Assembly (NCBI GenBank): GCA_030529455.1
Contig: JAUMWV010000001.1
Span: forward strand, 4,754 to 68,753
Origin: Propionibacteriaceae bacterium
GTDB taxonomy: Bacteria > Actinomycetota > Actinomycetes > Propionibacteriales > Propionibacteriaceae
Length of the DNA stretch: 64,000 bases
Direction of reading: 5' to 3'
Positions 36,208 to 64,000 of this stretch are shown here, piece after piece. The position numbers and the translations under genes are program-made. Under the pieces are notes generated by a model that was given only the letters and a program-made list of their open reading frames with translations, searched no databases and had not been told where the DNA came from. Position 1 is the stretch's first letter, and each line of letters starts with the position of its first letter.

Positions 36208-37124
36208 CAACGATCCTGAGGGTGGCTCACAACGTGGGGATGGACGAGATGCTGGCGCTATCCGACGGTGGCCACACGGTGACGGCCATCCTGGCGAATA
36301 CCGACCAGATACTGCCCGAGCGCGGAATCTCCTGCCGACAGGTCTCGGCCGCCCGGTTGCCAAATGTGTCTCGCGCTTTCGGTCGGCTCCGCTTCCATCA
36401 CGAGATCCGCGTCTCCGATGATGCGAAAACTGCCCAGGCCTTGCTAACCGACCACCAGATCCGGGGATCGGTCAAGAGTTACCTTCTCCGGGCAACCGCG
36501 GGCGACGAGATCGACTCCTGCCTACAAGACCTCGACCTCGACTTATTCGACCGGATTCTGGTGACCTCGAACATCACCGAGGAATACCTTCGCCGCCGCC
36601 ACGCGCTGCCGGTCCCCGTGGAGCAGATCCGGTTCGTGAACGGCCCCGCGCAAACCCCATCGCTGGGGGGACCCATCACCAGCCTCACCTGGATCGGTTC
36701 GGCCCACCCGAACGAAGGCGTTCAGGATTTCCTCCGGATACTGTCCCTGACCGGCCTGTCAGCCCAGATCTTGTGGACTAGCCCACCCGCTCCGGAGCGG
36801 TTCACTTCGGTCGTCGCGACCATGTCGCTGCTAGGCGTCACCGACCGGGTACGGTTCAGCTGGCCCGGCCCCTTCGAGGGCTTCCTCTCCACCATTCAGT
36901 CAACGATGCATCACACCTTATGGGTGTCCACCGCACGCGCCTACGCGCCCCGCTCAGCGGTCGAGCTGATCCTGCACCTCGGCGGCCGGGTGGTCTCCTT
37001 CGACAGCATCTACGCGATGGAACTCGCCGAGCAGTTCCCCGACCACCTCACGCTCACACCCGAAGGCTCGGCGCCGGACGCTGCCGCCGCGGTCCAGGCA
37101 CTAGCCGAGAAAGAGATTCCATGA
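36204..37124 (+). CDS. Degenerate GT-B-like protein
   Basis: ATGA overlap with the upstream gene. Rossmann-like halves (ILRVAHNVG..; LTWIGSAHPNEG..). No clear catalytic motif. Confidence 0.5.
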   Translation: MTTILRVAHNVGMDEMLALSDGGHTVTAILANTDQILPERGISCRQVSAARLPNVSRAFGRLRFHHEIRVSDDAKTAQALLTDHQIRGSVKSYLLRATAGDEIDSCLQDLDLDLFDRILVTSNITEEYLRRRHALPVPVEQIRFVNGPAQTPSLGGPITSLTWIGSAHPNEGVQDFLRILSLTGLSAQILWTSPPAPERFTSVVATMSLLGVTDRVRFSWPGPFEGFLSTIQSTMHHTLWVSTARAYAPRSAVELILHLGGRVVSFDSIYAMELAEQFPDHLTLTPEGSAPDAAAAVQALAEKEIP

Positions 37125-37891
37125 AAACGACAATACTGCTGAAGGTCGGTTTGGCCGTCATCGCGCTAGGCGCGGCGGTCTCGGTCGTCGCCTTCGCGTC
37201 GAACAATCTGCGGTTGGGCCTTTCCGCACTGGCGGTCGTCCTCGCTACGGGCTTTGCAAGCATTTTGGCCTACCTTCGCCGCAGTGCCAGGATCGCCGCC
37301 ACTGTCAACCGGGCCCGTAAGCAGGCCGAGACTGAGCTGCGCCGCAACGTGGAGGAGTTGGTGAACATAGCGAACAGCTCGGCCACCGCGGAGGATCTTC
37401 GCTGGATTCAGCACCGCCACGTCAAGCGAGAGAACGCTCTGCAACAGGCAGACCAGTCCGAACCGGTGGCGCTGACTGTCGGCCCATTGACCGCACCACT
37501 CGCCAGCGCCGCTACCGAGCCCACCGGCCAAGCAGTCAAACACCTGGTGGGGATCGGGTTGCCACCCGGGAACCTGGTGTCGGGCTTACCCGTATCCCCC
37601 CTGCTCCCCGGCGGGTTCACCAGCGCGGTGCTAGTCGGCCCGACCGCGGGGGTCGTGATCGACGAAAACGCCTTCACCCGCGGGCTCTGGAAAAGCCTTG
37701 GCCCAGACCAAGACAACTATCTGCTGTCGCAACTCACCGCCCTGCTCAAGAGCACCTCTCAGCGCGGTCTCCCGGTGGTGATCGTGCGCAGGCCGGATAC
37801 CCCGGAGCATCTGCTCTTCACCCGCCAGGCCGGGACGGTGGTAGACGACCCCGCAGAGATCCCCTCTTCTGTTTTTGCCCGCATCCCCTAG
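37121..37891 (+). CDS. 2-TM + coiled-coil + conserved C-domain protein (paralog 1 of 3)
   Basis: ATGA overlap. TM segments VGLAVIALGAAVSVVAF and LSALAVVLATGFASILAY. Coiled-coil-like VNRARKQAETELRRNVEELVNIA. C-domain motif GVVIDENAFTRGLWKSLG..LPVVIVRR. Confidence 0.65.
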   Translation: MKTTILLKVGLAVIALGAAVSVVAFASNNLRLGLSALAVVLATGFASILAYLRRSARIAATVNRARKQAETELRRNVEELVNIANSSATAEDLRWIQHRHVKRENALQQADQSEPVALTVGPLTAPLASAATEPTGQAVKHLVGIGLPPGNLVSGLPVSPLLPGGFTSAVLVGPTAGVVIDENAFTRGLWKSLGPDQDNYLLSQLTALLKSTSQRGLPVVIVRRPDTPEHLLFTRQAGTVVDDPAEIPSSVFARIP

Positions 37892-37983
37892 GCCCATGCT
37901 GCGACCCACCTTGACCGTCCCACCCAGGCAGTTCCAGCGCCTGGGCGGGCGCATCAGCCCCGCGGCCTACCTGAAGGAGCAGC

Positions 37984-49127: not shown

Positions 49128-49952
49128 TCAGAGGTGTTTCGCCTCTTCGAATAGCTCGAGCGCCTTCTCGGGTTCGTCCTTGGCGACCGCCCAGGCCCAT
49201 TTGCGGTAGTGCAGGGCAACTGTTTCGGCGGGGCCGTCGGCGATCAGCTCGCCCTCGTGCAGCCAGACCGCCCGGCTGCACATTTCCTCGATGGTCTTCG
49301 CGGCGTGCGAAACCAGGAAGATGGTGCCCGCCCCGGCCCGCAGCTCGTCGATGGCTTTCTTCGCCTTCTCGGTGAAGCCAGCGTCGCCGGTGCCGAGGGC
49401 CTCGTCGATCAGCAGGATCTCGGGTTTGACGGACGCGGCGATGGCGAACCGCAGGCGTGCCCCCATGCCGGAGGAATAGGTGTTCATCGGGCGGTGGAGC
49501 GCCCGCCCGATGCCTGCGAGTTCGGCGACCGCCGGGGCGGTGGCGCGAGCCTGGGCCGGGGTGTAGCCGAGCGCCAGCAGGCCGAGATGGATGTTCTTCG
49601 CGCCGGTCAGGTGCGGGATCAGCGCCGCGTTCACCCCGAGCAGCGTCGGCATCGCGGTCGCCCGGACGGAGCCGGAGGTGGGTGGCTCGATGCCCGCGAT
49701 GGTGCGCAGCAGCGTGCTCTTGCCGGAGCCGTTGGTGCCGACGATCCCCACGTGCTCGCCCTCGTAGACCCGCAGCGTCACGTTCTTCAGGGCGTGCACA
49801 TCGGCGCGGTAGGGCAGCCCGAAGACCCGACCGAGGCGGGCGCGGAACCGCCGGTTTTCTGGCACGTCGCTGAGGTCGTCGGTGGTCGGCCGGTAGACCA
49901 CGCTGAGGTCGTCCACGACGACCGAGAGGTTACTCCAAGGCGTTACGGGCAT
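49128..49952 (-). CDS. Polysaccharide/teichoic-acid-type ABC exporter ATPase (Wzt/TagH-like, NBD only)
   Basis: GGAGGTG RBS. GIVGTNGSGKSTLL, YSSGMGARLRF, LLIDEALGTGD. 274 aa with no C-terminal glycan-binding extension. Confidence 0.9.
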   Translation of the reverse strand: MPVTPWSNLSVVVDDLSVVYRPTTDDLSDVPENRRFRARLGRVFGLPYRADVHALKNVTLRVYEGEHVGIVGTNGSGKSTLLRTIAGIEPPTSGSVRATAMPTLLGVNAALIPHLTGAKNIHLGLLALGYTPAQARATAPAVAELAGIGRALHRPMNTYSSGMGARLRFAIAASVKPEILLIDEALGTGDAGFTEKAKKAIDELRAGAGTIFLVSHAAKTIEEMCSRAVWLHEGELIADGPAETVALHYRKWAWAVAKDEPEKALELFEEAKHL

Positions 49953-50820: not shown

Positions 50821-52489
50821 GGCAGATGTCCTGATAGATCTGGCGGCAGCGGGCCGCGTTGGCGGGCCAGGTCCGGCCCGCGGCGAACCGGCGCCCATTC
50901 GAGGCCAGCCGGGAGCGCAGGCCCTCGTCGGCGGCCAGTCGGCCGATGGCCTCGGCGAGGGAGTCGGCGTCGCCTGGCGTGGTGAGCAGCCCGCTGCCCG
51001 GAGTTTTCGCGAGTTCGGCGAGCGCGGGCAGGTCGCTGGCGATCACAGGGCGGCCCAGCGCCATCGCCTCGATCGGCTTCAGCGGGGTCACGACGCGGGT
51101 GACCGCGAGGTCGTGGCGGGGCACGGCGAAGGCGTCCAAGGCCTGGTGCCACAGCGCAGCCCGGTCGCGAGGCTGGCGTCCGGGCAGGACCACGGCATCG
51201 CCCAGCCCGAGAGCTTCGGCCTGGGCGGCTAGGCCGGGCCGGGACACCCCGTCACCGGCGATGGCGCAGCGCACGTCGATGCCGTTGGTACGACAGCGCG
51301 CGACAGCGTCTAGCAGCACATCGAATCCTTCATAGCCGACCAGGGACGAGACCGATCCGACCCAGACGCCTTCTGCGGGGAGTCCGAGCTCAACCCGGGC
51401 TTGACCTGGGGAGAGGTCCTGGTTGAGCAGGCTGGGATCGGTGGCGTTGGGCAACACGGCGATCCGTTCGGGCGGCACCCCCCGCGAGATCAGGTCTTCT
51501 CGCTGCACCTGGGACAGCACGATGACGGCGTGGGCGTCGGTGGCCAGCTCGGCTTCCTTGGCCCGCAACAGCCGGACGCGTTCGCTGATCGCTGCCTCGT
51601 CCCGAAGGGATTCGGGGCGGGAGGCGACCCAGGTGAGTTCCAGCTGGCCGCGCATCTCGTAGACCCAGGGCAGGCTGAAGCGGGAACTGAGCTCGCGGGC
51701 GACCAGCGCGTTGGTGTAATCGGTGGTGCAGTGCAGGACGCCGGGCCGGATGCGGGTGAGGAGCCGCGCGGCGGCTTCGGTGTGGGCCGCGACCCGCTCG
51801 TCGAGCCGGACCGGGAGGCGCCAGGCGGGCAGCCGGTGGTAGGGGATTCCGTCCACGACGCTGGTCAGCGGCGAGCCGAGGATTCCGACTGTGGTGGGGT
51901 ACCCGATCCTGGTGGCAGCGTTCACCTCGACCCCGGCGGCGCTCAGGGCGGTGAGCATCTCGTGGCTGCGGACGGTGTAGCCCGAGCGGGTGTGGGGCAG
52001 CGAATTGGTTAGCAGGAACAGCGCGGAGCTGGGATGCCCGCGGTGGCCGCGGGACCGCTGGGCGGCGGGGGCCAGAACGGCCCGCTCGGAGGCGAGGCGG
52101 GCGGCCAGCCGCGAACCGGGCGGCGCGGCGTCCGCGGCGGCGCTGAGCGCCCCCGCCTGGGCCAGGTCCTGGGCCCGCAGCCGGGGTGGGTCGTTCGCCT
52201 CGGCTCGGAACATGCCGAGTTGGACCGCCAGGCGACGGGCCAGGCGACGGCGCCAGCCGGTCGCCTGGGACATCCCGGACAGGGCGTCGCGGGCCTGGTC
52301 GGGCTGGTCGGCGAGAAACCATCGGTAGGCCGCGAGCAGGCCATCGTGGTGGCGGCCCGGCGGCCCGACCAGTTTCAGGCGGCGGGCGACCTGGACAGCG
52401 AAATGCAGCGGGTCCTCCATGAGCCCACGCACACTCGTGTCCAGCGCGAGCACCACATCGGTGAGCCGTCGCCGCAGCGGCACGATCAT
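50813..52489 (-). CDS. GT4 glycosyltransferase with about 190-aa helical N-terminal extension
   Basis: Start at MIVPLRRR (ATGA overlap with the upstream stop at 52489-52486). LFLLTNSLPHTRSGYTVRSHE, KPIEAMALGRPVIASD. Confidence 0.85.
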   Translation of the reverse strand: MIVPLRRRLTDVVLALDTSVRGLMEDPLHFAVQVARRLKLVGPPGRHHDGLLAAYRWFLADQPDQARDALSGMSQATGWRRRLARRLAVQLGMFRAEANDPPRLRAQDLAQAGALSAAADAAPPGSRLAARLASERAVLAPAAQRSRGHRGHPSSALFLLTNSLPHTRSGYTVRSHEMLTALSAAGVEVNAATRIGYPTTVGILGSPLTSVVDGIPYHRLPAWRLPVRLDERVAAHTEAAARLLTRIRPGVLHCTTDYTNALVARELSSRFSLPWVYEMRGQLELTWVASRPESLRDEAAISERVRLLRAKEAELATDAHAVIVLSQVQREDLISRGVPPERIAVLPNATDPSLLNQDLSPGQARVELGLPAEGVWVGSVSSLVGYEGFDVLLDAVARCRTNGIDVRCAIAGDGVSRPGLAAQAEALGLGDAVVLPGRQPRDRAALWHQALDAFAVPRHDLAVTRVVTPLKPIEAMALGRPVIASDLPALAELAKTPGSGLLTTPGDADSLAEAIGRLAADEGLRSRLASNGRRFAAGRTWPANAARCRQIYQDICHV

Positions 52490-53728: not shown

Positions 53729-54880
53729 CTAAGCTTCTACGTCCCCGGCGAAATCCGGCAGGCGGGTGCCGACGCCCAGCATCTGCGCGACCGCGGCGAT
53801 GGATCGTTCCGTGGCGTGCCCGTCGCCGTAGGGGTTGACGGCGTTCGCCATGGAGGCGTAGGCCCGCGGGTCTTCCAGCAGGCGCGCCACCTCGTCGACG
53901 ATCCGGTCCTCCTGGGTGCCGATTAGCCGGACGGTTCCGGCGGTGACGGCTTCGGGCCGCTCGGTGTTGTCCCGCATTACCAGCACGGGCTTACCCAGCG
54001 ACGGTGCCTCTTCCTGGACGCCGCCGGAGTCGGTCAGGATCAGCTTGGCGTGTTTCATCACCTTGGCGAATTCCCCATAGGGCAGGGGTTCGGTGGCGAT
54101 GACGTTGTCGCAGTCCTGCAGCTGGGGCAGGATGGCCTTCCGTACGGTCGGGTTGCGGTGGGCGGGCAGGACGATCACCAGCTCGGGGTAGCGGTGGGCC
54201 AGACGCCGCAGCGCTCGCCCCACTCCCGACATGCCGGCCCAGTTCTCTCGGCGGTGGGTGGTGACCAGCAAGTAGGGCACCTGGTCGGCTACCGCCTGGG
54301 CGAGCCTCGGGTCGGTTTCGATCTCGTAGTCGTGTGACACGGTCTGGAGCAGGGCATCGATCACCGTGTTCCCGGTGACGGCGATATCGTCTGGGCGGAA
54401 GGATTCCCTAATCAGGTTTTCTTTCGAGCCCGGCGTTGGAGCCAGGTGGAGCGCGGAAATCTGCGAGGTGATGCGGCGGTTCGCTTCCTCAGGGAAAGGA
54501 GAGGCGATGTCGCCGCTGCGCAGCCCAGCTTCCAGGTGCACCACGGGGATGTTCCGGTAGAAGGCGGCCATGGACGCGGCGGCAGCGGTCGAGGTGTCGC
54601 CCTGCACGATGACCGCGTCCGGCGCATACTCTTCCAGCACTGGGTCGAGCCGCGAAAAGGCTTTCGCCATGAGGCCGTTGAGCGGCTGGCCCGGCTCGAA
54701 AACGTTGAGGTCGCAGTCCGGTGTGATGCCGAAGACTTCGTTGACCTGGTCCAGCATTTCGCGGTGCTGGCCGGTGGTGATGGCCACAGATTCGAAGCGC
54801 GAATCATTCTGCAGCGCCTGGATTACAGGAGCGACTTTGATGGCTTCCGGGCGCGTTCCGTACACAGTCATGATCTGCAT
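53729..54880 (-). CDS. wecB: UDP-N-acetylglucosamine 2-epimerase (non-hydrolysing)
   Basis: VYGTRPEAIKVAPV, VVHLEAGLRS, ILTDSGGVQEEAPSLGKPVLVMR. Confidence 0.95.
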   Translation of the reverse strand: MQIMTVYGTRPEAIKVAPVIQALQNDSRFESVAITTGQHREMLDQVNEVFGITPDCDLNVFEPGQPLNGLMAKAFSRLDPVLEEYAPDAVIVQGDTSTAAAASMAAFYRNIPVVHLEAGLRSGDIASPFPEEANRRITSQISALHLAPTPGSKENLIRESFRPDDIAVTGNTVIDALLQTVSHDYEIETDPRLAQAVADQVPYLLVTTHRRENWAGMSGVGRALRRLAHRYPELVIVLPAHRNPTVRKAILPQLQDCDNVIATEPLPYGEFAKVMKHAKLILTDSGGVQEEAPSLGKPVLVMRDNTERPEAVTAGTVRLIGTQEDRIVDEVARLLEDPRAYASMANAVNPYGDGHATERSIAAVAQMLGVGTRLPDFAGDVEA

Positions 54881-55177: not shown

Positions 55178-56440
55178 ATGGCTGCCGGGCAGGTAATCGC
55201 AGTAATCGGATTGGGGTACATCGGATTGCCGACTGCGGCGATCCTAGCGGCTAGGGGGGCCAACGTCGTCGGGGTCGACGTCTCGGACCGGCACGTGGAC
55301 GCGGTCAACGCTGGCACGGTCCCGTTCGTCGAGCCAGACTTGGCCGAGCACGTCGCGGCGGCGGTCGCCGCGGGCCGCCTGCGGGCGCAGAAGGAAACGC
55401 CGAAGGCCGACGTCTACATCATCGCGGTCCCGACTCCGTTCACCGACAATCAGGAACCAGATCTGAGCTACGTCGACGCCGCGACCGACGCCCTAGCCGG
55501 GCACCTGAGTGGCGGGGAACTGATCGTCCTGGAGTCCACCTCCCCGCCCGGTGCCACCCGGCACGTCGCCGAGCGGGTGCTGGCGGCGCGTCCCGACCTG
55601 TCGATCGACGGTGCGGGCGGCAAGCCGGTGGTGGAGTTCGCGCACTGCCCGGAGCGGGTGCTGCCGGGGCGGGTCATGATCGAACTGGTCACCAACGACC
55701 GCATCGTCGGCGGGCTGAGCGCGTCGGCGGCTCGCCGCGCCAAGGAGCTCTACCAGACCTTCTGTGAGGCCGAGATTCACCTCACCGACGCCACCACCGC
55801 CGAGATGGCGAAGCTCACCGAGAACTCGTTCCGGGACGTGAACATTGCCTTCGCCAACGAGCTGTCGGTGGTGTGCGAGCGGCTCGACATCGACGTCTTC
55901 GAGCTGATCGAACTGGCCAACAAGCACCCGCGGGTGAACATCCTGCAGCCCGGCCCGGGCGTGGGCGGCCACTGCATCGCGGTCGACCCGTGGTTTATCG
56001 TCAGCGCGGCGCCGGAAGAGTCCAGGCTGATCCGGATGGCTCGCGCCGTCAACGACGACAAGCCGGCTTTCGTGCTTCGCCAGGTCGCGGAGGCCCTCGC
56101 CGGGGCTGAGCGGCCCACCATCGCGGTGTTGGGGCTGGCCTTCAAACCCGATATCGACGACCTGCGGGAGTCGCCCGCTCTGGCCATCGCCCGCAGCGTC
56201 GCCGAGGCCTACCCGGACGGGACGATCCTCGCGGTAGAACCGAACATCGACGAGCTGCCGCCGGTCCTCGCGGGACTGCCCAATGTCGCGCTGGCCAGCC
56301 TGGAGCAGGCCTTCGCTGAGGCTGACGCGGTCGTCCTGCTGGTGGACCACCGGGAGTTCAAGCAGCTCAAGGCCGAGGATCTCCCGGCCTGCCCGCTCGT
56401 GGACACCCGGGGCGTGTGGCGGACTGCCCGGGAGGTGTGA
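55178..56440 (+). CDS. wecC: UDP-N-acetyl-D-mannosamine dehydrogenase (nucleotide-sugar dehydrogenase)
   Basis: IAVIGLGYIGLPTAA, GPGVGGHCIAVDP (catalytic Cys), LGLAFKPDIDDLRESP. Divergent from wecB. Confidence 0.9.
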   Translation: MAAGQVIAVIGLGYIGLPTAAILAARGANVVGVDVSDRHVDAVNAGTVPFVEPDLAEHVAAAVAAGRLRAQKETPKADVYIIAVPTPFTDNQEPDLSYVDAATDALAGHLSGGELIVLESTSPPGATRHVAERVLAARPDLSIDGAGGKPVVEFAHCPERVLPGRVMIELVTNDRIVGGLSASAARRAKELYQTFCEAEIHLTDATTAEMAKLTENSFRDVNIAFANELSVVCERLDIDVFELIELANKHPRVNILQPGPGVGGHCIAVDPWFIVSAAPEESRLIRMARAVNDDKPAFVLRQVAEALAGAERPTIAVLGLAFKPDIDDLRESPALAIARSVAEAYPDGTILAVEPNIDELPPVLAGLPNVALASLEQAFAEADAVVLLVDHREFKQLKAEDLPACPLVDTRGVWRTAREV

Positions 56441-56443: not shown

Positions 56444-57334
56444 GTGGAGATGAAGAAGAACATCGTCCGGCTGAGCACCAAGGTGTGGGTGGTGGCCCTA
56501 GCCGGGGTGCAGGCGCTGGCCCTAGGGCTGCTTGCCCTGAGCTCGCTGCGCTGGTTCCTGGCGGTCGAAGCGTGCGCGCTGCTGCTGCTCGGGGTGCTGG
56601 TCTCGTCCAAGTTCGCCGATGTGCTCGGCCAGCTCGCGGCCCAGCGGCGGCAACTCGACCGTATTCAGGCTGGCCTCGGTCGCGCCCAGTGGCAGCTACA
56701 GGAGGCCATGACGGTCCTGAAGAGCCCGCAGGGCCGGATGCAGCGGATGGGTGGACGCGCCGTTCCTTCCGGGCCCAGCGCAGCGGCGACGAGTGGCGAC
56801 GGGGCCGGTCCGGTCGTCGGCCGGGCCGCGGGGGATTCTAGCGATTTCCGATCCCGGGAGGAGTTATTCCTGGACGCGGCCGGGTCGGCCGTCCAGCGGC
56901 TGGAGGCCCAGTCTTTCGCCGTTGTGCTCGGGTCCGGGCAACAGCTCCCCGAGTCGCTGGCGAAGGCGCGCCGTCTGACGCCCAGTTTCGTCACCATGCA
57001 GCTGGACAAGTTGCAGCCTGGCGGGGTGATCGTGGACGAGGCCGCCTTCGCCGAGGGACCCTGGGCCGGTGCCGACCGCGCCGGTGGGGAACACCTCGTG
57101 GCGAGCCTGCTTCAGCTGGTGGACTGGTGTAGCGACAACTCCGCTTCGCTGGTGCTGGTCCGCCGGGACGGGACGGTGGGAGAGAACACGGGGCTCATCC
57201 GGTCGTTCACGACGCTGCACGTTCCCCTGAGGAATGACCTTCCCGACGGCATCCCGGTCCCCGCGGTGGTGCGGGGAGCGCTCGACTTGGCCTCGGAAAA
57301 GCTCGAACTGGCCTCGAAAGAGCAAGCGGGATGA
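56444..57334 (+). CDS. 2-TM + coiled-coil + conserved C-domain protein (paralog 2 of 3)
   Basis: GTG 8 nt after GGGAGG. TM segments VWVVALAGVQALALGLLAL and AVEACALLLLGVLVSS. Coiled-coil-like LGQLAAQRRQLDRIQAGLGRAQWQLQEAM. C-domain motif GVIVDEAAFAEGPWAGAD..SLVLVRR. Confidence 0.65.
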   Translation: MEMKKNIVRLSTKVWVVALAGVQALALGLLALSSLRWFLAVEACALLLLGVLVSSKFADVLGQLAAQRRQLDRIQAGLGRAQWQLQEAMTVLKSPQGRMQRMGGRAVPSGPSAAATSGDGAGPVVGRAAGDSSDFRSREELFLDAAGSAVQRLEAQSFAVVLGSGQQLPESLAKARRLTPSFVTMQLDKLQPGGVIVDEAAFAEGPWAGADRAGGEHLVASLLQLVDWCSDNSASLVLVRRDGTVGENTGLIRSFTTLHVPLRNDLPDGIPVPAVVRGALDLASEKLELASKEQAG

Positions 57335-59481
57335 CCGAGCAGCCGGGCCGCGTTGTCCGGGTGCTGCTGTATGGGGACGTCAACCTGAACCTGCTGGACG
57401 GGTCGGCGCTGTGGCTGACTTCAATGGCCCAACTGCTTCCCCTGGCGGGCTGCCAGGTGGACCTGCTGCTCAAGGCCCCGGTGGTGAACGACCGGCTCGT
57501 ACGGCCGCTGCGCGACCTGCCCGGGCTGAACCTGCTGGACGAGCTCAGCGGCACGGGCCGGGAGGCCTACAGCACGCCGGAGGCCGCCCGCCGGATCGTC
57601 GAGTTATCCGGGCAGGGCTATGACCTGGTGCTGCTGCGGGGCCTGGCGGTGAACCAGGCGGTGGCTGGGGACCGGGCGTTCACGGGGCGGCTGTGGTCGT
57701 ACGTGACCGACTACCCGCAGACCGCGGCCGAGTTCACCGAAGGGAAGCGAGACGAGCTGCGCAAGGTCGCGGCCAGCTGCCACGTGTTCTTCGCCCAGAC
57801 CGAATCGAGCCGTTCCTACCTCGAGTACCACCTGCCCGAACTGGCCGGGAAGACGCTGCTGATGCCCCCGCCGATCCCGGGCTTCGAGGCCTCCGAGCCT
57901 GAGCCGGACAACCCCAGCCAGGTACGGATGATCTACGCCGGGAAGCTGGCGGAGCAGTGGCGCACCAAGGAGATGTGCGAGCTGCCCTCGCTACTGGCCG
58001 AGGAGGGGATCGCGGCGAACCTGACCGTCTTCGGCGATAAGTTCCACCAGGGGACATCCAAGAAGTCCTGGACCGGGGAGATGACCGAGGCCCTGGGGCT
58101 GCCCGGCGTCGACTGGCGCGGTGGCGTGGCCAGGGAGGAGATGCTGGCCGAGCTGGCCCAGTTCAACCTGGGCATGAGCTGGCGGGACCCAGAGCTCGAC
58201 GCGAGCCACGAGTTGTCCACCAAGCTGCTGGAATACGGTTCCTGCGGGCTGCCGGTGCTGGTGAACCGCAACGCGCTGCACGAAGAGATCTTGGGCGCGG
58301 ATTACCCGCTCTATGTCGAACAGGACGATCCGGTCGCGGCGATCCGGGGGGCTCTGGCCGAGCCGGGTTCCTTCGCCGAGGCGGCCCGGCGCTGCCAGCG
58401 GGCGGCTCAGCGCCACACCTTCCCGGTCGTGGCCGAGCGGTTCCAAGACTACCTGCGGGAATGGCTTCCCCGTCCCACGCTCAGCGTGGACCAGAAGATC
58501 ACGGTCCTGGTGGCGGGCCACGACTTCAAGTTCTGCGGTGAACTGTTCGACCTGCTGAAGGCCGAACCGGCGGTGAACCTTTTGGTCGATCACTGGTCCG
58601 GCCTGCATCACCACGACCCGGGGACCAGCGAGAACCTGCTGAACCGCGCCGACGTCGTCATGTGTGAGTGGTGCGGCCCGAACGCGGTCTGGTACGCCAA
58701 GCACAAACGCCCCGGTCAGCGGCTGGTCGTCCGGCTGCACATGTTCGAGCTGAGCGCGCCCTGGATGAGCTCGCTCAACACGTCCGCGATCGACGCCATG
58801 GTGTGTGTCTCCGATTACTACGCCCGCACCACTGAGGCTGCCCTCGGCCTGGCGGAGGGATCGGTGCGGATGATCCCCAACACCATCCGGGTCAGCGACT
58901 TCGAGCGCCCCAAACAGGACGGTGCGCGGTTCAGCCTGGGACTCGTGGGGGTCGTGCCACTGCGCAAACGGCCGGACCGGGCGATCGGGCTGCTGCGGGA
59001 GTTGCTGGCCTATGACCACCGCTACACGCTGCGCATCCGCGGCCGCTTCCCCAACGAGTATCCGTGGCTGTGGCGCGACCCGCTCTACCGCTCCTATTAC
59101 CAGGACATTTTCGACCAGATGTTGCACGACCCGGTCGTGGCTGGCCACCTGACCTGGGACTATTTCGGCCCCGACATGGCCAACTGGCTGCGCGGCATCG
59201 GCTGGGTGCTGTCGCCCAGCACGGACGAGAGTTTCCACATCGCCCCGCTGGAGGGGATGGCGTCGTCCGCCGTGCCGGTGATCTGGGAACGTCCGGGAGC
59301 GGAACAGATCTTCGGCAGCCACTGGGTGCGCCCGGACGGGGCGGCCGAGCTGGCTCGTTTTATCCACGAGGCCAATACCGGTGCCGGGTGGCAGCGCCTC
59401 GGGGCACAGGCCCGGCGGGAGGCGCGCCGCTACGACGTGGCAGAGGTTCAAAGATCATGGCGTGAGGTGCTCTGGGGATGA
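57331..59481 (+). CDS. Tandem GT-B (two GT4-like modules) glycosyltransferase, polymerase-like
   Basis: ATGA overlap. Module 1 ends ELSTKLLEYGSCGLPVLV. Module 2 has ITVLVAGHDFKF.. and ESFHIAPLEGMASSAVPVI. Confidence 0.75.
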   Translation: MTEQPGRVVRVLLYGDVNLNLLDGSALWLTSMAQLLPLAGCQVDLLLKAPVVNDRLVRPLRDLPGLNLLDELSGTGREAYSTPEAARRIVELSGQGYDLVLLRGLAVNQAVAGDRAFTGRLWSYVTDYPQTAAEFTEGKRDELRKVAASCHVFFAQTESSRSYLEYHLPELAGKTLLMPPPIPGFEASEPEPDNPSQVRMIYAGKLAEQWRTKEMCELPSLLAEEGIAANLTVFGDKFHQGTSKKSWTGEMTEALGLPGVDWRGGVAREEMLAELAQFNLGMSWRDPELDASHELSTKLLEYGSCGLPVLVNRNALHEEILGADYPLYVEQDDPVAAIRGALAEPGSFAEAARRCQRAAQRHTFPVVAERFQDYLREWLPRPTLSVDQKITVLVAGHDFKFCGELFDLLKAEPAVNLLVDHWSGLHHHDPGTSENLLNRADVVMCEWCGPNAVWYAKHKRPGQRLVVRLHMFELSAPWMSSLNTSAIDAMVCVSDYYARTTEAALGLAEGSVRMIPNTIRVSDFERPKQDGARFSLGLVGVVPLRKRPDRAIGLLRELLAYDHRYTLRIRGRFPNEYPWLWRDPLYRSYYQDIFDQMLHDPVVAGHLTWDYFGPDMANWLRGIGWVLSPSTDESFHIAPLEGMASSAVPVIWERPGAEQIFGSHWVRPDGAAELARFIHEANTGAGWQRLGAQARREARRYDVAEVQRSWREVLWG

Positions 59482-62423
59482 AAAAATGGCTTGTCGGCTG
59501 GCTGCTCTGCGCCCTGTCGGTCGTTTTTGTGGCCAGCTCGCCGCCGCAGGCCTATGCGGCTGAGGAACAGTTCTTAGGGGAGCCTTTATCAGCAGAAGCC
59601 ACCGGTTTCAAGGCCAAGGATGCCGCGGTCGGGATGGTCGGGGAGACTCCTCTGGCCGCTTTCCTGGTGGCCGGGCACGCCGGGGAGGGCGCGCGTTTCG
59701 TTGTGACGAATCTCACCGGCAACGTGCTGGTCGACTGGTCGGGTCCGCTCCCCACCGCCTCGGCGGTCACCTATTCGCCCGCCGACCGGGCCTTCTATTT
59801 CGCGTTCAGTGACAGCGTCGAGTCCGGCCGGGCCGAGGTGTACCGATGGTCCGGTGGGCGGCCAGCGAAGCTGGCCACCGTCGAGCGGCAGCAGATCGTC
59901 TCGCTGGCCCCGGCGTCTTCTGGCGGGGTCTATGTTGGCACCTTCGCGCAGGCGGGCGGGCAGCTGTACTCCCTGACCGAGACCAAGCTGACCAGACTCC
60001 GGCAGCCGTTCCCCGGCCAGGCCTATGTGCGCACGATCGTCGCCGATTCCAGATCGGTCTTCGTGTCCAACTATGTGAGCTCAGGGTTTCGGCTCCTGCG
60101 TTACGACCTGGCCGCGGGCAGGTACCACGAGATCGAGCTGCCCCGGGAGCTGAAGGCGCAGCGGGCAGCCCACACGATGACCCTCGCCGGGGACTACCTC
60201 GTCCTGCGCTCGATCGACGGTGCGCAACTGTGGCTGTACCACCGGAAGAAGAACCGGTTCGTGCCGATTGACGACCAGGTGGGGCGCAGCTTCCGCAAGC
60301 CCGAGGTCGAGAACCGTCGCTCTCACCTGGATCGTGTGAGCCAATTCGCTATCTCAGGTCTCGTCGAGGGCCGCTACGTCTTCTTCCAGCGTGCCCGCGC
60401 GGGGCTGATGAGGCTAGACCTGTCGCTGCCGGTGCCGAAGGCGATCCGGATGGACAAGTACTCGCCCCGGGACAACCCGAGCCCCATGGAAGGGGCAAGT
60501 GCGGGCAATGCCACCGGTTACCTGATGCTTCCCGCGACCAAGGAGATTCCTACTTCCACTCTGGTCGCGGTGACGACGGACGGCCAGATCCTGAAGAACC
60601 AGCCGGGGCATGCCCAGACCTCGGTGTCGGTCCGGGCGCAGGGCACGGCCATCCGGCTGTGGTCGGTGAACCAGGTCACCGGCGGACGGATCGCGCTGGG
60701 CGGCTTCCACCCCCAGCAGGGGCTGGCCCTCTTCGACCCGATCACGATGGAATACGCCACGCCGAAGGTCGTCCAGATCGAGGGGGCTGGGTCCTTCCAG
60801 GGCCGCTCAGTCTTCGGCGGGTACACCGGCGGGGCCCAGGACGGTGCGCCGGTCTTCGGCCAACAAAAAGATGGGACGCTGAAACGGCTCGCCACGATCG
60901 GGCATTCGCAGGAGCGTCCGGTGGCGCTGGCCGAGGCCGACGGGAAACTGGCAATCGGCACGATCCCCGGCAAGGAACAAAACGGTGGGGCGCTGTCGCT
61001 GTGGGACCCCAGGTCCGGCAAGACCACCGTGAAACGCAATCTCATCCCCGGCCAGTCGGTCATCTCGCTGGTGGGCCACGGCAAGAGGCTCGTCGGCGGG
61101 TCGTCCAACACCGGCGGCACCGGGGCCAAACCAACCCCGGGAGTGGGACAGATCTTCACCTACGACCCCGCGACCGACGGCCTGAAGACCATGCGGACCG
61201 TGGATACCTCCGGGGCGTTTTCCTGGGTGGCGGCCATCACCCCCGACCCGGAGGCTGCGGACCACTTCTGGGCGATCGCGACCGGGCGGCTGATCCAGTT
61301 CCGGGTGGAGGCCAACGGCCAGCCGGTGCTCACCCGAGACCTTGGTGCTTTCCCCAAGACTTCCGCTCCGAGCGGACGCGGGCTGGGGATCGCCTTCGCG
61401 CCGGGCAAGATCTATGCCACCCTCAGCGAATCGGTCATGGAGATCGACCGGGCCTCCGGGAAGGCCAGTGCGCTCGCTGGCCCGACCTCGGACGGGCCCG
61501 TCATCGGATTAGTGAGGGTCAGCGACTACCTCTATTACGCCCGGGGAGCCAAGCTGTTCCGGCTCGCCCTGCGTCCGGCGGTTACCGATTGCTCTTTCGC
61601 CGCACCGCAGCTGGTGTCGCCGCAGCCCGGAACCTCGCACGGGCAAGGGCCGGTCTCCTTCACCGGAACCGGCACGCCAGGCACCCAGGTGAGCGTGCAG
61701 GCCGGGGGCAGGAACGTGGACGCGGTGGTCGGCCAGGACGGCAGCTGGCGCACCCCGCAGGTCCAGATGCCGGCCGGGCGCACCGCCGTGAAACTCAGCG
61801 CGACTAAGCCGGGTTGTCCGGCGAAGACGGCCTCGGCGACGCTCACCTTCACCGCGAAGCAGCCTGAGCTGGTCGCACCGACCCTCACCTCGCACCGCCC
61901 GGGCCAGTACTACCCGGCCGGTCGGGTGGTCTTCGCTGGACGCGCCCAGCCCGGCAGCCAGGTGAAGCTGCGGGTCGGCTCCCAGCACCGCGTCGCCACG
62001 GTTGAGGCGGACGGACGCTGGGAGATGGCCCCGATGAGGGTCTCTCCCCAGGGCATCGACCTCGTCTTCGAAGCCCATCGTCCGGGTGCGGCCCCGCGTC
62101 CGGCGGCCTACACGCTGTTCTTTGGACCAGCTCCCAAGAAGCTGTCGGCGCCCTCGCTGCTCAGCCATCGGCCGGGCCAGTGCTATCCCGGGGCCAGTGA
62201 TGTCCGGCTCGCCGGGCGGGGTATTCCCGGGGCGAAGATCACCGCCAGGATCGGGTCTAGGACCAGGGTCGCCTACGTGCGCAGCAATGGCAGGTGGAAT
62301 ACCGGCCCGATTCCGATCAACCCGAAGCGGCGGACCGCGGTCACGGTCCACTACGAGGTCACCGCGCCCGGGCTCCCCAGCGTGAGCCACGCCGAGACCT
62401 ATTACTTCGGGTGCAGCAGCTAA
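59478..62423 (+). CDS. Secreted 981-aa protein: propeller-like N-region + three tandem Ig-like repeats of about 90 aa
   Basis: ATGA overlap. Signal peptide MKKWLVGWLLCALSVVFVASSPPQAYA. The repeats start LVSPQPGTSHGQGPVSF, LVAPTLTSHRPGQYYPAG and LSAPSLLSHRPGQCYPGA (about 61600-62420). Confidence 0.75.
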   Translation: MKKWLVGWLLCALSVVFVASSPPQAYAAEEQFLGEPLSAEATGFKAKDAAVGMVGETPLAAFLVAGHAGEGARFVVTNLTGNVLVDWSGPLPTASAVTYSPADRAFYFAFSDSVESGRAEVYRWSGGRPAKLATVERQQIVSLAPASSGGVYVGTFAQAGGQLYSLTETKLTRLRQPFPGQAYVRTIVADSRSVFVSNYVSSGFRLLRYDLAAGRYHEIELPRELKAQRAAHTMTLAGDYLVLRSIDGAQLWLYHRKKNRFVPIDDQVGRSFRKPEVENRRSHLDRVSQFAISGLVEGRYVFFQRARAGLMRLDLSLPVPKAIRMDKYSPRDNPSPMEGASAGNATGYLMLPATKEIPTSTLVAVTTDGQILKNQPGHAQTSVSVRAQGTAIRLWSVNQVTGGRIALGGFHPQQGLALFDPITMEYATPKVVQIEGAGSFQGRSVFGGYTGGAQDGAPVFGQQKDGTLKRLATIGHSQERPVALAEADGKLAIGTIPGKEQNGGALSLWDPRSGKTTVKRNLIPGQSVISLVGHGKRLVGGSSNTGGTGAKPTPGVGQIFTYDPATDGLKTMRTVDTSGAFSWVAAITPDPEAADHFWAIATGRLIQFRVEANGQPVLTRDLGAFPKTSAPSGRGLGIAFAPGKIYATLSESVMEIDRASGKASALAGPTSDGPVIGLVRVSDYLYYARGAKLFRLALRPAVTDCSFAAPQLVSPQPGTSHGQGPVSFTGTGTPGTQVSVQAGGRNVDAVVGQDGSWRTPQVQMPAGRTAVKLSATKPGCPAKTASATLTFTAKQPELVAPTLTSHRPGQYYPAGRVVFAGRAQPGSQVKLRVGSQHRVATVEADGRWEMAPMRVSPQGIDLVFEAHRPGAAPRPAAYTLFFGPAPKKLSAPSLLSHRPGQCYPGASDVRLAGRGIPGAKITARIGSRTRVAYVRSNGRWNTGPIPINPKRRTAVTVHYEVTAPGLPSVSHAETYYFGCSS

Positions 62424-62880
62424 ACCGCCGGGGAACTTCAGGCGTGCTTCGTCCGGCCCAGTTCTTCCGAGCAGATAACTCGTGAACGGGTTTCGTTGAG
62501 AGCGCTAACCAGGACCGGGCAGCGCGACCCGGGGTCTGTCTCGGTCTTGCCGGGCCCACGCACGCGTGATCTGCGAGCCGCAGATACCGGATAACCCAGT
62601 TGCCCCGGTCCTAGCTACCCAGCCCAATCGCGTGCGCCGGGCTGCATTCGGAGAGCATCCGCCGTGACCTCTACCGGTCACCTAATGGAGACCGGATGGC
62701 CGTGATCCCTACCTGGAAGCAAACTCTTCGGTCGCGCCGGAACGGTTCGCAACGCATCGAAGGAGTAGAACCATCAGACCTCCGAGGACACGGACACGCC
62801 CTGACCATTCAGGCGCATACGGACAGTAGACTGAATGCTCAACGTCAGGTTGCAGGGGTAGCGAGGTGGGAGGCAACAAC

Positions 62881-63837
62881 GTGACGATGAGGCATAAAGA
62901 CATGAAGGCGACCCTCGCCGTGAGTGCTGTCGGGCTGGTCGTAGCGGGCGCGACGTTCGTCAGCTTGACCCCGCTGAACTTTCATCCCCTGACGTCGACG
63001 ATGTGGAGCCTACTGGCTGGCCTGGCTGCGCTGGCGGGCTGCTCCCTCTTGATTGCTAGCCGCCGGGCCCATGCCTGGTCGAGGAAGCTAGTGGTGAGCG
63101 ACACACAAAGCCAGAAGAAGCTCGCAGAACTCGCAAAGCATCTTCACCGGCAGAGCCAGCTTCTGAAGCGCCTGGAGGGAGAGATCCAGCAGCTGGAGGG
63201 AACCAGATCTTCAGCCCCTCAAGAGATCGCAGAACAGCTTGCCGCTGCCTCAGCCCCGGCCTTGATCCAGCCACGCAGCGTCTTCGATCCAGACTTGGTA
63301 GCTAGCTTCACGCCGACGAACGCCTCAAAGAGTGTCATCGCGGGCAGAGGGGCTGCTGATCGTTTGACGGATCCGATGTCCCCGGCAAAGCTCTGGGCCT
63401 TGACGCATGCGGATGCCGATCCCAGCCGCATGCGGGTAGCGACCATTGCCCCAGTGGCTGTTCGTGAGCGTCTAGAAGAATCGTTCGAGGTCGTCACGCT
63501 CCACCCAACCATGCTGTACCCGGAACTGTTGCGTGGGCTCTCGGCGATCGTGCTACACATGGCTGCCTTCAACGAGGGTCAGTGGTTCGGCTACGACTCT
63601 TCTCATGCCACGGTGGGGGCTGCCGACCTTCAAGGCTTTCTGCGCCAGGCCAACCGCCGTAAGGTACCTATTTACGCGGTTCCGGACGGGCGGATTGCCC
63701 ACTTCACGCACCAGATCATAAGCCTTGCCGACCGGGTCGTTCGGCGAGAAGGCTCTGGGAGGGAGCCGACAGCGCTTGGGGTTACGACAGTGGAGCGCGT
63801 GCTGCTGGACCTGGTGAAGGGAAATGGTCATGTCTAA
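62881..63837 (+). CDS. 2-TM + coiled-coil + conserved C-domain protein (paralog 3 of 3)
   Basis: GTG 7 nt after GGGAGG (alternative starts 62866 and 62887). TM segments LAVSAVGLVVAGATFV and MWSLLAGLAALAGCSLLIA. Coiled-coil-like KKLAELAKHLHRQSQLLKRLEGEIQQLEG. C-domain motif AIVLHMAAFNEGQWFGYD. Confidence 0.65.
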   Translation: MTMRHKDMKATLAVSAVGLVVAGATFVSLTPLNFHPLTSTMWSLLAGLAALAGCSLLIASRRAHAWSRKLVVSDTQSQKKLAELAKHLHRQSQLLKRLEGEIQQLEGTRSSAPQEIAEQLAAASAPALIQPRSVFDPDLVASFTPTNASKSVIAGRGAADRLTDPMSPAKLWALTHADADPSRMRVATIAPVAVRERLEESFEVVTLHPTMLYPELLRGLSAIVLHMAAFNEGQWFGYDSSHATVGAADLQGFLRQANRRKVPIYAVPDGRIAHFTHQIISLADRVVRREGSGREPTALGVTTVERVLLDLVKGNGHV

Positions 63838-64000
63838 GTCGGTTCTTCTTTACGGCGATGTGAGTCTCAACGTTGTCGATGGCTCATCGATCTGGCTGAT
63901 TTCCATGGCCGAGGTGCTGAGCCGGGTCGCGGACGAGGTTCATTTGCTGAGCAAGGTGCAGGTCAACAGCGATCTGCTGCTAGGACAGCTCCTGCGGATC
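63830..64000 (+). CDS. N-terminus of a second tandem-GT-B-type enzyme (paralog of the 57331 gene; truncated by the window end)
   Basis: The ATG overlaps the upstream stop by 8 nt. MSKSVLLYGDVSLNVVDGSSIWLISMAEVL matches VVRVLLYGDVNLNLLDGSALWLTSMAQLL of the 57331 gene. It is not in the ORF track because it has no in-window stop. Confidence 0.6.
   Translation, partial: MSKSVLLYGDVSLNVVDGSSIWLISMAEVLSRVADEVHLLSKVQVNSDLLLGQLLRI

What the first reader, a model, noticed from the sequence alone, without database searches (positions are those of the whole stretch)
37121..64000. Three paralogous 2-TM + coiled-coil + C-domain proteins, two of them start/stop-overlapped with paralogous tandem-GT-B enzymes
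The proteins at 37121-37891, 56444-57334 and 62881-63837 share one architecture. Each has two N-terminal TM helices, a heptad-like charged stretch, and a C-domain with a common motif (GVVIDENAFTRGLWKS / GVIVDEAAFAEGPWAG / AIVLHMAAFNEGQWFG, followed by a hydrophobic strand ending VRR or VPD). Two of them are overlapped (ATGA at 57331; 8 nt at 63830) with large enzymes whose N-termini are clearly paralogous (LLYGDVNLNLLDGSALWLTSMAQLL versus LLYGDVSLNVVDGSSIWLISMAEVL). So a two-gene cassette has been duplicated inside one glycopolymer locus. I know of no named family with this layout. In ABC-transporter-dependent O-antigen systems, chain length is set by a coiled-coil ruler protein (WbdD). By analogy, these could be membrane tethers or length and localisation regulators for cytoplasmic polymerases. 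That role is pure inference.
Basis: partly seen in the sequence, partly recalled or inferred. Interest (0 to 1): 0.7.

Follow-up and report, generated by a model that had tools for sequence, protein, structure and literature searches.

The report
Membrane partner protein of wall-polymer glycosyltransferases
Three small membrane proteins in this cell-wall sugar-polymer locus belong to an unnamed Actinomycetota family that almost always sits directly upstream of a large double glycosyltransferase, and most likely anchors or organises that enzyme at the membrane.

Summary
Three ORFs (A 37121-37891, B 56444-57334, C 62866/62881-63837) share a two-helix membrane hairpin, a helical stalk and a C-terminal alpha/beta domain with an A[FL]xxGxW motif. 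B and C overlap the starts of two paralogous double GT-B enzymes.

The family is real and unnamed. An exhaustive profile search found 104 cluster representatives, and none of the 91 scanned members hits Pfam. In at least 72 of the 80 best genome loci holding this double glycosyltransferase, a gene carrying the domain lies immediately upstream. UDP-ManNAc dehydrogenase and 2-epimerase genes are usually nearby, which suggests a teichuronic-acid-like polymer.

The C-domain is not orphan. It is remotely homologous (HHalign 95%, E 3e-8) to the N-terminal Rossmann domain of CgeB-like glycosyltransferases. It lacks a donor-binding half and has no conserved catalytic-type Ser, His or Asn.

My best reading is a non-catalytic, membrane-anchored partner subunit that tethers and oligomerises the soluble polymerase. 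The WbdD-style ruler idea is weakly supported: there is no terminator domain, the heptad segment I detected is short, stalk length varies widely, and the ABC ATPase has no carbohydrate-binding module.

The two cassettes are old paralogs, not a recent in-locus duplication. A is an outlier: no detectable heptads, no GRxAA motif and no double-GT partner. All function is inferred.

The parts
56444..57334 (+). Protein B (296 aa; alternative start ATG 56450). Layout: membrane hairpin aa ~14-55; heptad coiled-coil window aa 56-83; low-confidence linker aa ~103-125; GRxAA motif aa 126-130 (nt 56819-56833); alpha/beta domain aa ~138-295; AFAEGPW motif aa 201-207 (nt 57044-57064).
   Evidence: (AF2 mean pLDDT 84, most 10-residue blocks after ~160 above 90).
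57331..59481 (+). GT1, a 716-aa double GT-B glycosyltransferase with no TM segment. ATGA-overlapped with B. Candidate bifunctional polymerase.
   Evidence: (Glyco_trans_1_2 at 230-371; Glyco_transf_4 at 438-520).
62866..63837 (+). Protein C (318-323 aa; possible starts 62866, 62881, 62902). Membrane hairpin, the strongest heptad segment of the three (aa ~78-105), GRGAA motif, C-domain with AFNEGQW.
   Evidence: (145.8 bits).
63830..64000 (+). N-terminus of GT2, the second double GT-B, cut by the window end. Overlaps C by 8 nt. The full-length ortholog is 737 aa in L001.
37121..37891 (+). Protein A (256 aa), a divergent family member. It has the membrane hairpin, a charged helix without a significant heptad pattern, no GRxAA motif, and a C-domain with AFTRGLW. 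It is not adjacent to a double GT of the GT1/GT2 family.
   Evidence: (71.7 bits).
36204..37124 (+). 306-aa protein of unknown family, ATGA-overlapped with A at 37121. The order 607 aa, 306 aa, A is conserved in relatives L086 and L087.
34384..36207 (+). 607-aa glycosyltransferase with a TuaH-like GT-B C-terminal half. First gene of the unit that contains A.
55178..56440 (+). UDP-N-acetyl-D-mannosamine dehydrogenase (WecC equivalog), directly upstream of B. Its stop ends at 56440.
   Evidence: (570.9 bits against a cutoff of 459).
53729..54880 (-). Non-hydrolysing UDP-GlcNAc 2-epimerase (WecB/MnaA).
   Evidence: 447.9 bits.
49128..50898 (-). ABC-2 exporter. Permease at 49930-50898 (Wzm-like). 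ATPase at 49128-49952 (TagH/Wzt-like, 274 aa, no C-terminal carbohydrate-binding module).
59478..62423 (+). 981-aa secreted protein with an N-terminal signal peptide and Ig-like repeats. Its start at 59478 overlaps the last 4 nt of GT1 (which ends at 59481). Conserved downstream of GT1 in L001 and L002.

Best explanation
B and C, and their relatives in other Actinomycetota, are non-catalytic, membrane-anchored partner subunits of a soluble double GT-B polymerase. That polymerase builds a ManNAcA-containing (teichuronic-acid-type) wall polymer, which an ABC-2 transporter exports.

Proposed mechanism:
1. The N-terminal two-helix hairpin sits in the cytoplasmic membrane with both ends inside.
2. 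The short coiled coil oligomerises the protein.
3. A flexible linker carries a cytoplasmic Rossmann-like domain. This domain derives from the N-terminal (acceptor-side) half of a CgeB-like GT-B enzyme and has lost the donor-binding half.
4. That domain, with its fixed-distance GRxAA motif, docks the polymerase. The enzyme is thereby held and concentrated at the membrane, next to its polyprenol-linked acceptor and the exporter.
5. Overlapping stop and start codons would favour co-production of the two proteins.

Shown here: the architecture, the family, the homology of the domain, the gene linkage and the pathway context. Inferred: the physical interaction, the tethering role and the identity of the polymer.
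For: 1. The family is real and its architecture is uniform. There are 104 representatives at E <= 1e-3, and the matched domain lies towards the C-terminus in almost all of them. 90 of 95 full-length members have a ~50-aa hydrophobic block with positive charge on both flanks, which implies a cytoplasmic C-domain.

2. Linkage seen from the GT side. The double GT has 352 relatives in species-representative genomes. In the best 80 loci, 68 have an ORF immediately upstream that matches the C-domain HMM at E <= 1e-3, and 72 at E <= 0.1. Most of the 12 loci missed at the strict threshold carry the long variant of the same protein.

3. Linkage seen from the small-protein side. P0013, P0016, P0020, P0021, P0023, P0026 and P0033 are all followed by a GT of this family, usually with overlapping codons.

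4. The partner GT has no TM segment. Variants of the partner that lack TM helices (Actinomadura, Nocardiopsis) instead have an N-terminal coiled coil plus a basic helix, 'LPRDLxRLWR'.

5. There is no catalytic signature. The best-conserved positions are G126, R127, P180, D/E198, G205 and W207 (100%). No Ser, His or Asn is among the positions conserved in at least half the members. No Pfam, NCBIfam or PDB sequence hit was found.

6. The domain is homologous to the N-domain of CgeB-like GTs (HHalign 95%, E 3e-8). The long partner variants align along a whole CgeB-like/GT2 enzyme, but one long variant lacks the acidic DxD-like stretch and gets no Pfam hit. I read this as descent from a glycosyltransferase to a pseudoenzyme.

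7. Pathway context. WecC and WecB genes lie within 6 kb in 63 of 80 loci each. LCP ligase genes and ABC-2 transporter genes appear in related loci.

8. Precedent. Coiled-coil proteins act as membrane-associated scaffolds that recruit dual-GT polymerases in Gram-negative ABC-dependent systems (PMC11231755). The M. luteus teichuronic acid synthetase is a lipid-dependent membrane complex (PMC3005890).
Against: - No interaction evidence was obtained.
- Adjacency and correlated divergence (r = 0.96) are expected for any two co-inherited neighbours.
- Conserved R127, D/E198 and W207, which also line up with the ESAWxGxxGxW motif of active CgeB-like GTs, could form a ligand-binding site rather than a docking surface.
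- A is not next to a double GT, so the family is not strictly tied to that partner.
- The subunit sizes reported for M. luteus TUAS (54 and 52.5 kDa, PMC3005890) match neither protein.
- Foldseek found only generic flavodoxin-like matches (best E 2.8e-3).
Confidence: 0.55

Rival explanations
1. Chain-length ruler in the WbdD/WbbB sense. The stalk would set the distance between the membrane and a distal domain that ends or limits elongation, and so fix polymer length.
For: - The geometry mirrors WbdD: anchor, coiled coil, distal globular domain. Coiled-coil proteins are a hallmark of length-controlled ABC-dependent systems (PMC11231755).
- B and C have significant heptads.
- The two paralogs differ in stalk length, 64 against 94 aa, as would be expected if each polymer had its own length.
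Against: - There is no kinase, methyltransferase or full GT domain at the distal end.
- The ABC ATPase is 274 aa and lacks a CBM. All terminated systems carry a CBM, while CBM-less systems set length by coupling export to synthesis (PMC11231755).
- The heptad signal was found in a 28-residue window and is followed by a low-confidence linker.
- Family stalk lengths range continuously from 25 to 164 aa.
Confidence: 0.13
2. Acceptor-handling or activating subunit, Alg14-like in logic. The retained GT-B N-domain would bind the lipid-linked primer or the growing chain end and present it to the polymerase. It would then be needed for catalysis or processivity, not only for localisation.
For: - The domain is homologous to the acceptor-side N-domain of CgeB-like GTs. 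The residues conserved in both (acidic residue, G, W) line up.
- The spacing from GRxAA to W is tightly fixed at 76-99 aa, which suggests one folded binding unit.
- Membrane-anchored half-GT-B proteins that activate a partner are known (Alg14/Alg13; my own knowledge, papers listed but not read).
Against: - The partner appears to have two GT-B modules of its own. Pfam supports the C-half of module 1 and the N-half of module 2; the remaining halves are inferred. This is unlike Alg13, which lacks an N-domain.
- No Alg14 Pfam match.
- No ligand evidence.
Confidence: 0.22
3. An enzyme in its own right, for example an SGNH-type esterase or acyltransferase that modifies the polymer, and merely co-transcribed with the GT.
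For: The top Foldseek hits are SGNH hydrolases (E. coli TesA; probability 0.99, E 2.8e-3). O-acetylated chain ends occur in a Streptomyces teichuronic-acid-like polymer (PMC13274773).
Against: - No Ser, His or Asn is among the positions conserved in at least half of 91 members.
- TM-scores are low (0.27/0.41), CheY-like receivers score similarly, and no match has E < 1e-3.
- The HHalign relationship is to a GT-B N-domain instead.
Confidence: 0.04
4. Extracytoplasmic co-polymerase (Wzz/PCP-like), acting outside the membrane.
For: Two TM helices plus a coiled-coil segment superficially recall the PCP proteins.
Against: - The two TM helices are adjacent and form a hairpin. Both flanks are net positive, so the C-terminal part is cytoplasmic.
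- TM-less variants have no TM segment by hydropathy and no recognisable signal peptide on reading the sequences.
- The locus uses an ABC-2 exporter, and none of the genes I scanned matched a Wzy or Wzx family.
Confidence: 0.02

Closest known systems
WbdD-WbdA (E. coli O9a / K. pneumoniae O3) and related coiled-coil scaffold proteins of ABC-transporter-dependent O-antigen assembly
   Same: A membrane-associated coiled-coil protein paired with a soluble dual-GT-module polymerase in an ABC-transporter-dependent pathway. The scaffold recruits the polymerase (PMC11231755).
   Different: - WbdD carries a kinase/methyltransferase terminator at the distal end, has an extended coiled-coil ruler, and is anchored by a C-terminal amphipathic helix (PMC11231755).
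- Its transporter has a CBM (PMC11231755).
- Here the anchor is an N-terminal TM hairpin and the detected heptad segment is short.
- The distal domain is a half GT-B without catalytic signature, and the ATPase lacks a CBM.
- No sequence relationship was found.
CgeB-like glycosyltransferases (Pfam Glyco_trans_1_2 PF13524 with DUF3880 PF12996), for example the 626-636-aa GT-B/GT2 fusions found in the same kind of locus in Arthrobacter
   Same: The C-domain of A, B and C is homologous to the N-terminal Rossmann domain of these enzymes (HHalign 95%, E 3e-8), with AFxxGxW matching ESAWNGNxGxW. The long partner variants align along the whole enzyme.
   Different: - The small proteins stop after the N-domain. 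They have no donor-binding Glyco_trans_1_2 domain and no GT2 module.
- They have gained a TM hairpin and a stalk.
- They get no Pfam hit.
Alg14/Alg13 (eukaryotic UDP-GlcNAc transferase). From my own knowledge; the papers listed were not read.
   Same: A membrane-anchored protein consisting of a GT-B N-domain that recruits a soluble partner to the membrane.
   Different: - Alg13 is only the C-half, so the two proteins together make one GT-B. Here the partner already appears to have two GT-B modules.
- No Alg14 Pfam match.
Teichuronic acid synthetase complex (TUAS) of Micrococcus luteus
   Same: A membrane-bound, lipid-dependent, bifunctional ManNAcA/Glc polymerising complex in a Micrococcaceae species (PMC3005890). 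The double GT plus partner gene pair occurs in Micrococcus antarcticus (L070), with WecC next to it. In most of the 80 loci it sits with both WecC and WecB.
   Different: - The TUAS genes were never identified.
- The reported subunits are 54 and 52.5 kDa (PMC3005890), not the roughly 80 and 30 kDa expected from the 716-aa and ~300-aa proteins.
- The link is an inference.

Membership tests
WbdD-type coiled-coil terminator/ruler | Chain-terminating catalytic domain (kinase, methyltransferase or Kdo transferase) at the end of the coiled coil distal to the membrane | tested here: not met
   No Pfam or NCBIfam domain in A, B, C or 91 relatives. No Ser, His or Asn among the well-conserved positions.
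WbdD-type coiled-coil terminator/ruler | Extended coiled coil acting as a spacer | tested here: inconclusive
   Significant heptads in B and C over a 28-residue test window; none in A. Stalk length across the family ranges from 25 to 164 aa.
WbdD-type coiled-coil terminator/ruler | Cognate ABC transporter ATPase carries a C-terminal carbohydrate-binding module that reads the chain cap (PMC11231755) | tested here: not met
   The ATPase at 49128-49952 is 274 aa. It matches short TagH across positions 36-239 of a 264-position model.
WbdD-type coiled-coil terminator/ruler | Physically recruits a dual-GT polymerase to the membrane | not testable with these tools
   Only gene linkage is available: at least 72 of 80 loci, with overlapping codons.
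CgeB-like GT-B glycosyltransferase (PF13524 with DUF3880) | N-terminal Rossmann domain with the ESAWxGxxGxW-type motif | tested here: met
   HHalign probability 95%, E 3.3e-8 over 108 columns.
CgeB-like GT-B glycosyltransferase (PF13524 with DUF3880) | C-terminal nucleotide-sugar-binding domain (Glyco_trans_1_2) | tested here: not met
   The proteins end after the N-domain and have no PF13524 hit. The AF2 model shows a single alpha/beta domain.
Alg14-like membrane anchor | Match to the Alg14 family, and a partner that is only a GT-B C-half | tested here: not met
   No Pfam hit. The partner appears to have two GT-B modules: Pfam supports the C-half of module 1 and the N-half of module 2.
SGNH hydrolase | Conserved Ser-Gly-Asn-His catalytic residues | tested here: not met
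   No Ser, His or Asn among the positions conserved in at least half of members. The Foldseek match is weak (E 2.8e-3, TM 0.27/0.41).
Polysaccharide co-polymerase (Wzz/PCP) | Two TM helices flanking a large extracytoplasmic coiled-coil domain | tested here: not met
   The TM helices are adjacent in a ~50-aa block, and both flanks are positively charged.
The new family itself (hairpin-stalk-domain partner of the double GT) | C-domain HMM match with A[FL]xxGxW, an N-terminal TM hairpin, and a double GT immediately downstream | tested here: met
   B and C meet all three criteria. A meets the first two but not the third, and it lacks GRxAA.

The most novel reading that the evidence does not exclude
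The family is the Gram-positive (Actinomycetota) counterpart of the coiled-coil ruler proteins of Gram-negative O-antigen assembly, but it works without any capping chemistry. A pseudo-glycosyltransferase domain, held on a stalk of lineage-specific length, would bind the growing chain end or the polymerase. That would set the length of teichuronic-acid-type wall polymers. On this reading, the two cassettes in this locus would give two polymers, or two blocks, of different length.
Probability: 0.12. Interest if true: 0.8.

Novelty: new variant of a known kind. Interest (0 to 1): 0.55.

Why it matters
How Gram-positive bacteria hold soluble polymerising glycosyltransferases at the membrane is poorly understood. 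So is how they control wall-glycopolymer length in ABC-transporter-dependent pathways.

This work defines an unnamed protein family with an almost invariant gene partnership across many Actinomycetota: Micrococcaceae, Propionibacteriaceae, Actinomyces, Nocardiopsis, Actinomadura and Nanopelagicales. It gives that family an evolutionary origin, a glycosyltransferase N-domain turned into a membrane-anchored pseudoenzyme.

It also nominates concrete candidate genes for the teichuronic acid synthetase complex, whose genes were not identified in the 2010 biochemical study (PMC3005890).

The hypothesis can be tested directly in culturable Arthrobacter or Micrococcus strains.

Tried and rejected
- The word-indexed homolog search found only close relatives, at least 66% identical. 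The exhaustive profile search was needed to see the family.
- The first AF2 run, with 11 sequences, was poor (mean pLDDT 60). The rerun with 91 sequences gave 84.
- Foldseek against the PDB gave only generic flavodoxin-like, SGNH and CheY matches, none with E < 1e-3.
- Profile and single-sequence searches of PDB sequences found nothing for the small family, the double GT, or the 306-aa and 552-aa neighbours of A.
- The search for related loci with the small-protein alignment failed because no stretch was conserved enough. I used the GT alignment instead.
- I tested whether A's neighbours (607, 306 and 552 aa) are a split or divergent double GT. HHalign gave no relationship.
- I tested whether absence of GRxAA predicts absence of the GT partner. 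It does not: GR-less P0020 is still followed by a GT of the family.
- The Streptomyces Utr teichuronic-acid-like cluster, as that paper describes its genes, is a different system.
- Literature searches found no description of this family.
- The correlation between small-protein and GT divergence (r = 0.96) is uninformative about interaction, because shared descent explains it.

Full report
**Source and locus**

The window comes from a Propionibacteriaceae metagenome-assembled genome. B is 100% identical to NCBI protein Q3997_00250.

Positions 34-64 kb form a cell-wall glycopolymer locus next to lysS. It encodes:
- several glycosyltransferases;
- an AsnB-like amidotransferase;
- an ABC-2 exporter: a Wzm-like permease at 49930-50898 and a TagH-like 274-aa ATPase at 49128-49952;
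- WecB UDP-GlcNAc 2-epimerase, 447.9 bits;
- WecC UDP-ManNAc dehydrogenase, 570.9 bits against a cutoff of 459.

The locus can therefore make UDP-ManNAcA. I infer a teichuronic-acid-type polymer.

**Checking the observation**

The overlaps are real:
- ATGA at 57331 between B and GT1.
- 8 nt at 63830-63837 between C and GT2.
- ATGA at 37121 between the upstream 306-aa gene and A.
- WecC stops at 56440, just before B's GTG at 56444 or ATG at 56450, with a GGAGG upstream.

Pairwise BLASTP similarity is restricted to the C-domain and is weak: E 4e-6, 1e-3 and 6e-3. All three proteins score strongly against a family HMM, at 71.7 to 145.8 bits. The two GT N-termini are 52% identical, E 4e-14.

A simple heptad test supports a coiled coil in B (a/d enrichment 0.70; about 1% of shuffles reach it) and in C (0.82; no shuffle of 500 reaches it). 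It does not support one in A (0.40; 44% of shuffles reach it).

**The family**

None of the three proteins hits Pfam or NCBIfam.

Word-indexed searches found only near-identical relatives. An exhaustive HMMER search with a C-domain profile found 104 cluster representatives at E <= 1e-3. They are 146-378 aa long, and the matched domain lies towards the C-terminus in almost all of them.

Of the full-length members, 90 of 95 have a hydrophobic block of about 50 residues, enough for two adjacent TM helices. Both flanks are net positive, which implies an N-in/C-in hairpin and a cytoplasmic C-domain.

In a 91-sequence alignment the best-conserved positions (B numbering) are:

| Position | Conservation |
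|---|---|
| W207 | 100% |
| G205 | 98% |
| P180 | 96% |
| D/E198 | 96% |
| R127 | 95% |
| G126 | 93% |
| A129, A130 | ~85% |

No Ser, His or Asn is among the positions conserved in at least half the members.

The stalk, measured from the end of the hairpin to GRxAA, varies from 25 to 164 aa. The spacing from GRxAA to W207 is fixed at 76-99 aa. GRxAA therefore belongs to the globular module.

None of the 91 members has a meaningful Pfam hit. A profile search of PDB sequences found nothing. All named members are 'hypothetical protein'.

**Structure**

With the 91-sequence alignment, AF2 gives mean pLDDT 84.3 for B. The model has:
- one long N-terminal helix covering residues 5-93, which includes the hairpin and stalk;
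- a low-confidence linker at about 103-125;
- a confident alpha/beta domain, with most 10-residue blocks after residue ~160 above pLDDT 90.

Foldseek against the PDB returns only generic flavodoxin-like matches: TesA and other SGNH hydrolases, and CheY receivers. The best E is 2.8e-3 with TM-scores 0.27/0.41, and no match has E < 1e-3. Because the SGNH catalytic residues are not conserved, I reject an SGNH enzyme.

**Origin of the domain**

The HMM weakly hit the N-terminal part of 616-694-aa ORFs in Arthrobacter loci. Those I scanned carry DUF3880 plus Glyco_trans_1_2 (CgeB-like GT-B), and two of the three also carry a GT2 module.

Profile-profile comparison confirms the homology: probability 95%, E 3.3e-8 over 108 columns. 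The family motif AFxxGxW aligns with ESAWNGNxGxW.

In other lineages (Nocardiopsis, Streptomonospora, Actinomyces, Nanopelagicales) the gene upstream of the double GT is a 530-600-aa protein with the same domain near its N-terminus (97.4%, E 1.6e-11). This long form aligns over about 500 columns with the CgeB-like/GT2 enzyme (94.8%). One long variant lacks the acidic DxD-like stretch in that alignment, and the four long forms I scanned get no Pfam hit. In Actinomadura and Spirillospora the partner is a short TM-less form with an N-terminal coiled coil and a basic helix.

I read this as a glycosyltransferase-derived pseudoenzyme. In the Micrococcaceae/Propionibacteriaceae type it has been reduced to the N-domain and fitted with a TM hairpin.

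**Conserved linkage**

A GT alignment (A4) found 352 relatives in species-representative genomes, all from Actinomycetota among the best 80.
- In 68 of those 80 loci, an ORF that ends at the GT start matches the C-domain HMM at E <= 1e-3. At E <= 0.1 the count is 72.
- Of the 12 missed at the strict threshold, most have the long variant in the same place, and the rest have too little upstream sequence.
- From the small-protein side, P0013, P0016, P0020, P0021, P0023, P0026 and P0033 are each followed immediately by a GT of this family.
- WecC-like and WecB-like genes lie within 6 kb in 63 of 80 loci each.
- LCP ligase and ABC-2 genes occur nearby in related loci.

**The exception, A**

A and its orthologs (P0006, P0007, P0012) sit in a conserved order: 607-aa GT, 306-aa protein, then A. 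A 552-554-aa protein and a GT4 follow, with an extra 598-aa GT2 inserted after A in one relative. None of the 607-, 306- or 552-aa proteins is related to the double GT. A also lacks GRxAA and shows no heptads.

Absence of GRxAA does not by itself predict loss of the partner. P0020 lacks the motif but still has a related GT downstream.

**Was the cassette duplicated?**

GT1 and GT2 are 37% identical to each other, while each is about 43% identical to an Arthrobacter ortholog. B and C are about as far from each other as from Arthrobacter members. GC3 is 0.70 for C, against 0.84-0.89 for B and GT1.

The two cassettes are old paralogs or were acquired separately. They are not a recent in-locus duplication. 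A related genome (L001) keeps both cassettes in the same order. Another (L002/L086) has the B cassette and the A unit on the 15.9-kb contig examined, with no C cassette seen there.

**Mechanism**

The best-supported reading is a non-catalytic membrane partner. The hairpin anchors it, the short coiled coil oligomerises it, and the cytoplasmic pseudo-GT domain with its GRxAA motif docks the TM-less double GT. This places the GT at the membrane next to its lipid-linked acceptor and the exporter. The overlapping codons would favour co-production of the two proteins.

This matches the scaffold role described for coiled-coil proteins in Klebsiella and E. coli O-antigen systems (PMC11231755). It also fits the lipid-dependent membrane complex that makes M. 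luteus teichuronic acid (PMC3005890). The interaction itself is inferred.

The WbdD-style ruler is less likely for four reasons:
- There is no terminator domain.
- The heptad segment I detected is short.
- Stalk length varies continuously across the family.
- The ABC ATPase has no CBM. All terminated systems have one, whereas CBM-less systems set length by coupling export to synthesis (PMC11231755).

An acceptor-presenting or activating role, Alg14-like in logic, remains a serious alternative. The residues conserved here coincide with those conserved in active CgeB-like N-domains.

**Novelty**

No Pfam or NCBIfam model, solved structure or paper describes this family. The type of solution, a membrane-bound coiled-coil scaffold for a dual-GT polymerase, is known from Gram-negative bacteria. 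I therefore rate this a new variant of a known kind, of moderate interest, and readily testable.

Noticed in passing
window 59478-62423 (+): A 981-aa protein with a clear N-terminal signal peptide (MKKWLVGWLLCALSVVFVASSPPQAYA) and C-terminal Ig-like repeats (weak Big_6 and Ca_tandemer hits). Its start overlaps the last 4 nt of the cytoplasmic GT1. It is conserved downstream of GT1 in L001 and L002 but absent from all 80 genome loci of other genera. It could be a lineage-specific surface protein tied to the polymer.
   Followed up: partly
window 34000-48000 and 62000-64000: G+C falls to 0.59-0.65, against about 0.70 elsewhere. GC3 of the genes there is 0.67-0.80, against 0.84-0.95. The regions include A, C and the start of GT2. 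This is typical of a laterally exchanged, variable part of a glycan locus.
   Followed up: partly
window 47109-48977 (-): An asparagine-synthase-like (AsnB-type) amidotransferase inside the glycopolymer locus. It might amidate the uronic acid (ManNAcA to its amide), as WbpS-type enzymes do in O-antigens. That comparison is from my own knowledge and was not tested.
   Followed up: no
window 37984-39642 (+) and 36204-37124 (+): Two conserved proteins (552 aa and 306 aa) flank A. They have no Pfam, NCBIfam or PDB sequence match. The 552-aa protein has two stretches that look like GT-A N-termini by eye. Both may be unclassified glycosyltransferases.
   Followed up: partly
L006-L016, L004 4826-6733, L089 544-2454, L090 1793-3673, L093 1798-3699: In Micrococcaceae-type loci, a 626-636-aa CgeB-like GT-B (with a GT2 module in those I scanned) sits two genes upstream, giving the order GT, wecC, small protein, double GT. 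This is the apparently active enzyme whose N-domain the small proteins resemble. The window has no ortholog of it.
   Followed up: partly
window 30042-31301 (+): A 419-aa protein with an N-terminal helical region resembling WXG100/LXG-type secretion substrates, followed by a glycine-rich hydrophobic C-terminus. It lies just outside the glycan locus and may be a type VII secretion-associated toxin or effector.
   Followed up: no
window 1-5412 (-): A very long ORF of more than 1803 aa runs off the window start. Not examined.
   Followed up: no
L051-type and Actinomadura/Nocardiopsis loci (e.g. L030 5294-5977, L083 4271-5995): The TM-less partner variants share a conserved segment after the coiled coil, 'S-T-S-x-x-V-G-R-x-L-x-x-A-A-K-R-P ... 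L-P-R-D-L-x-R-L-W-R'. It may be an in-plane membrane-binding helix that replaces the TM hairpin.
   Followed up: no
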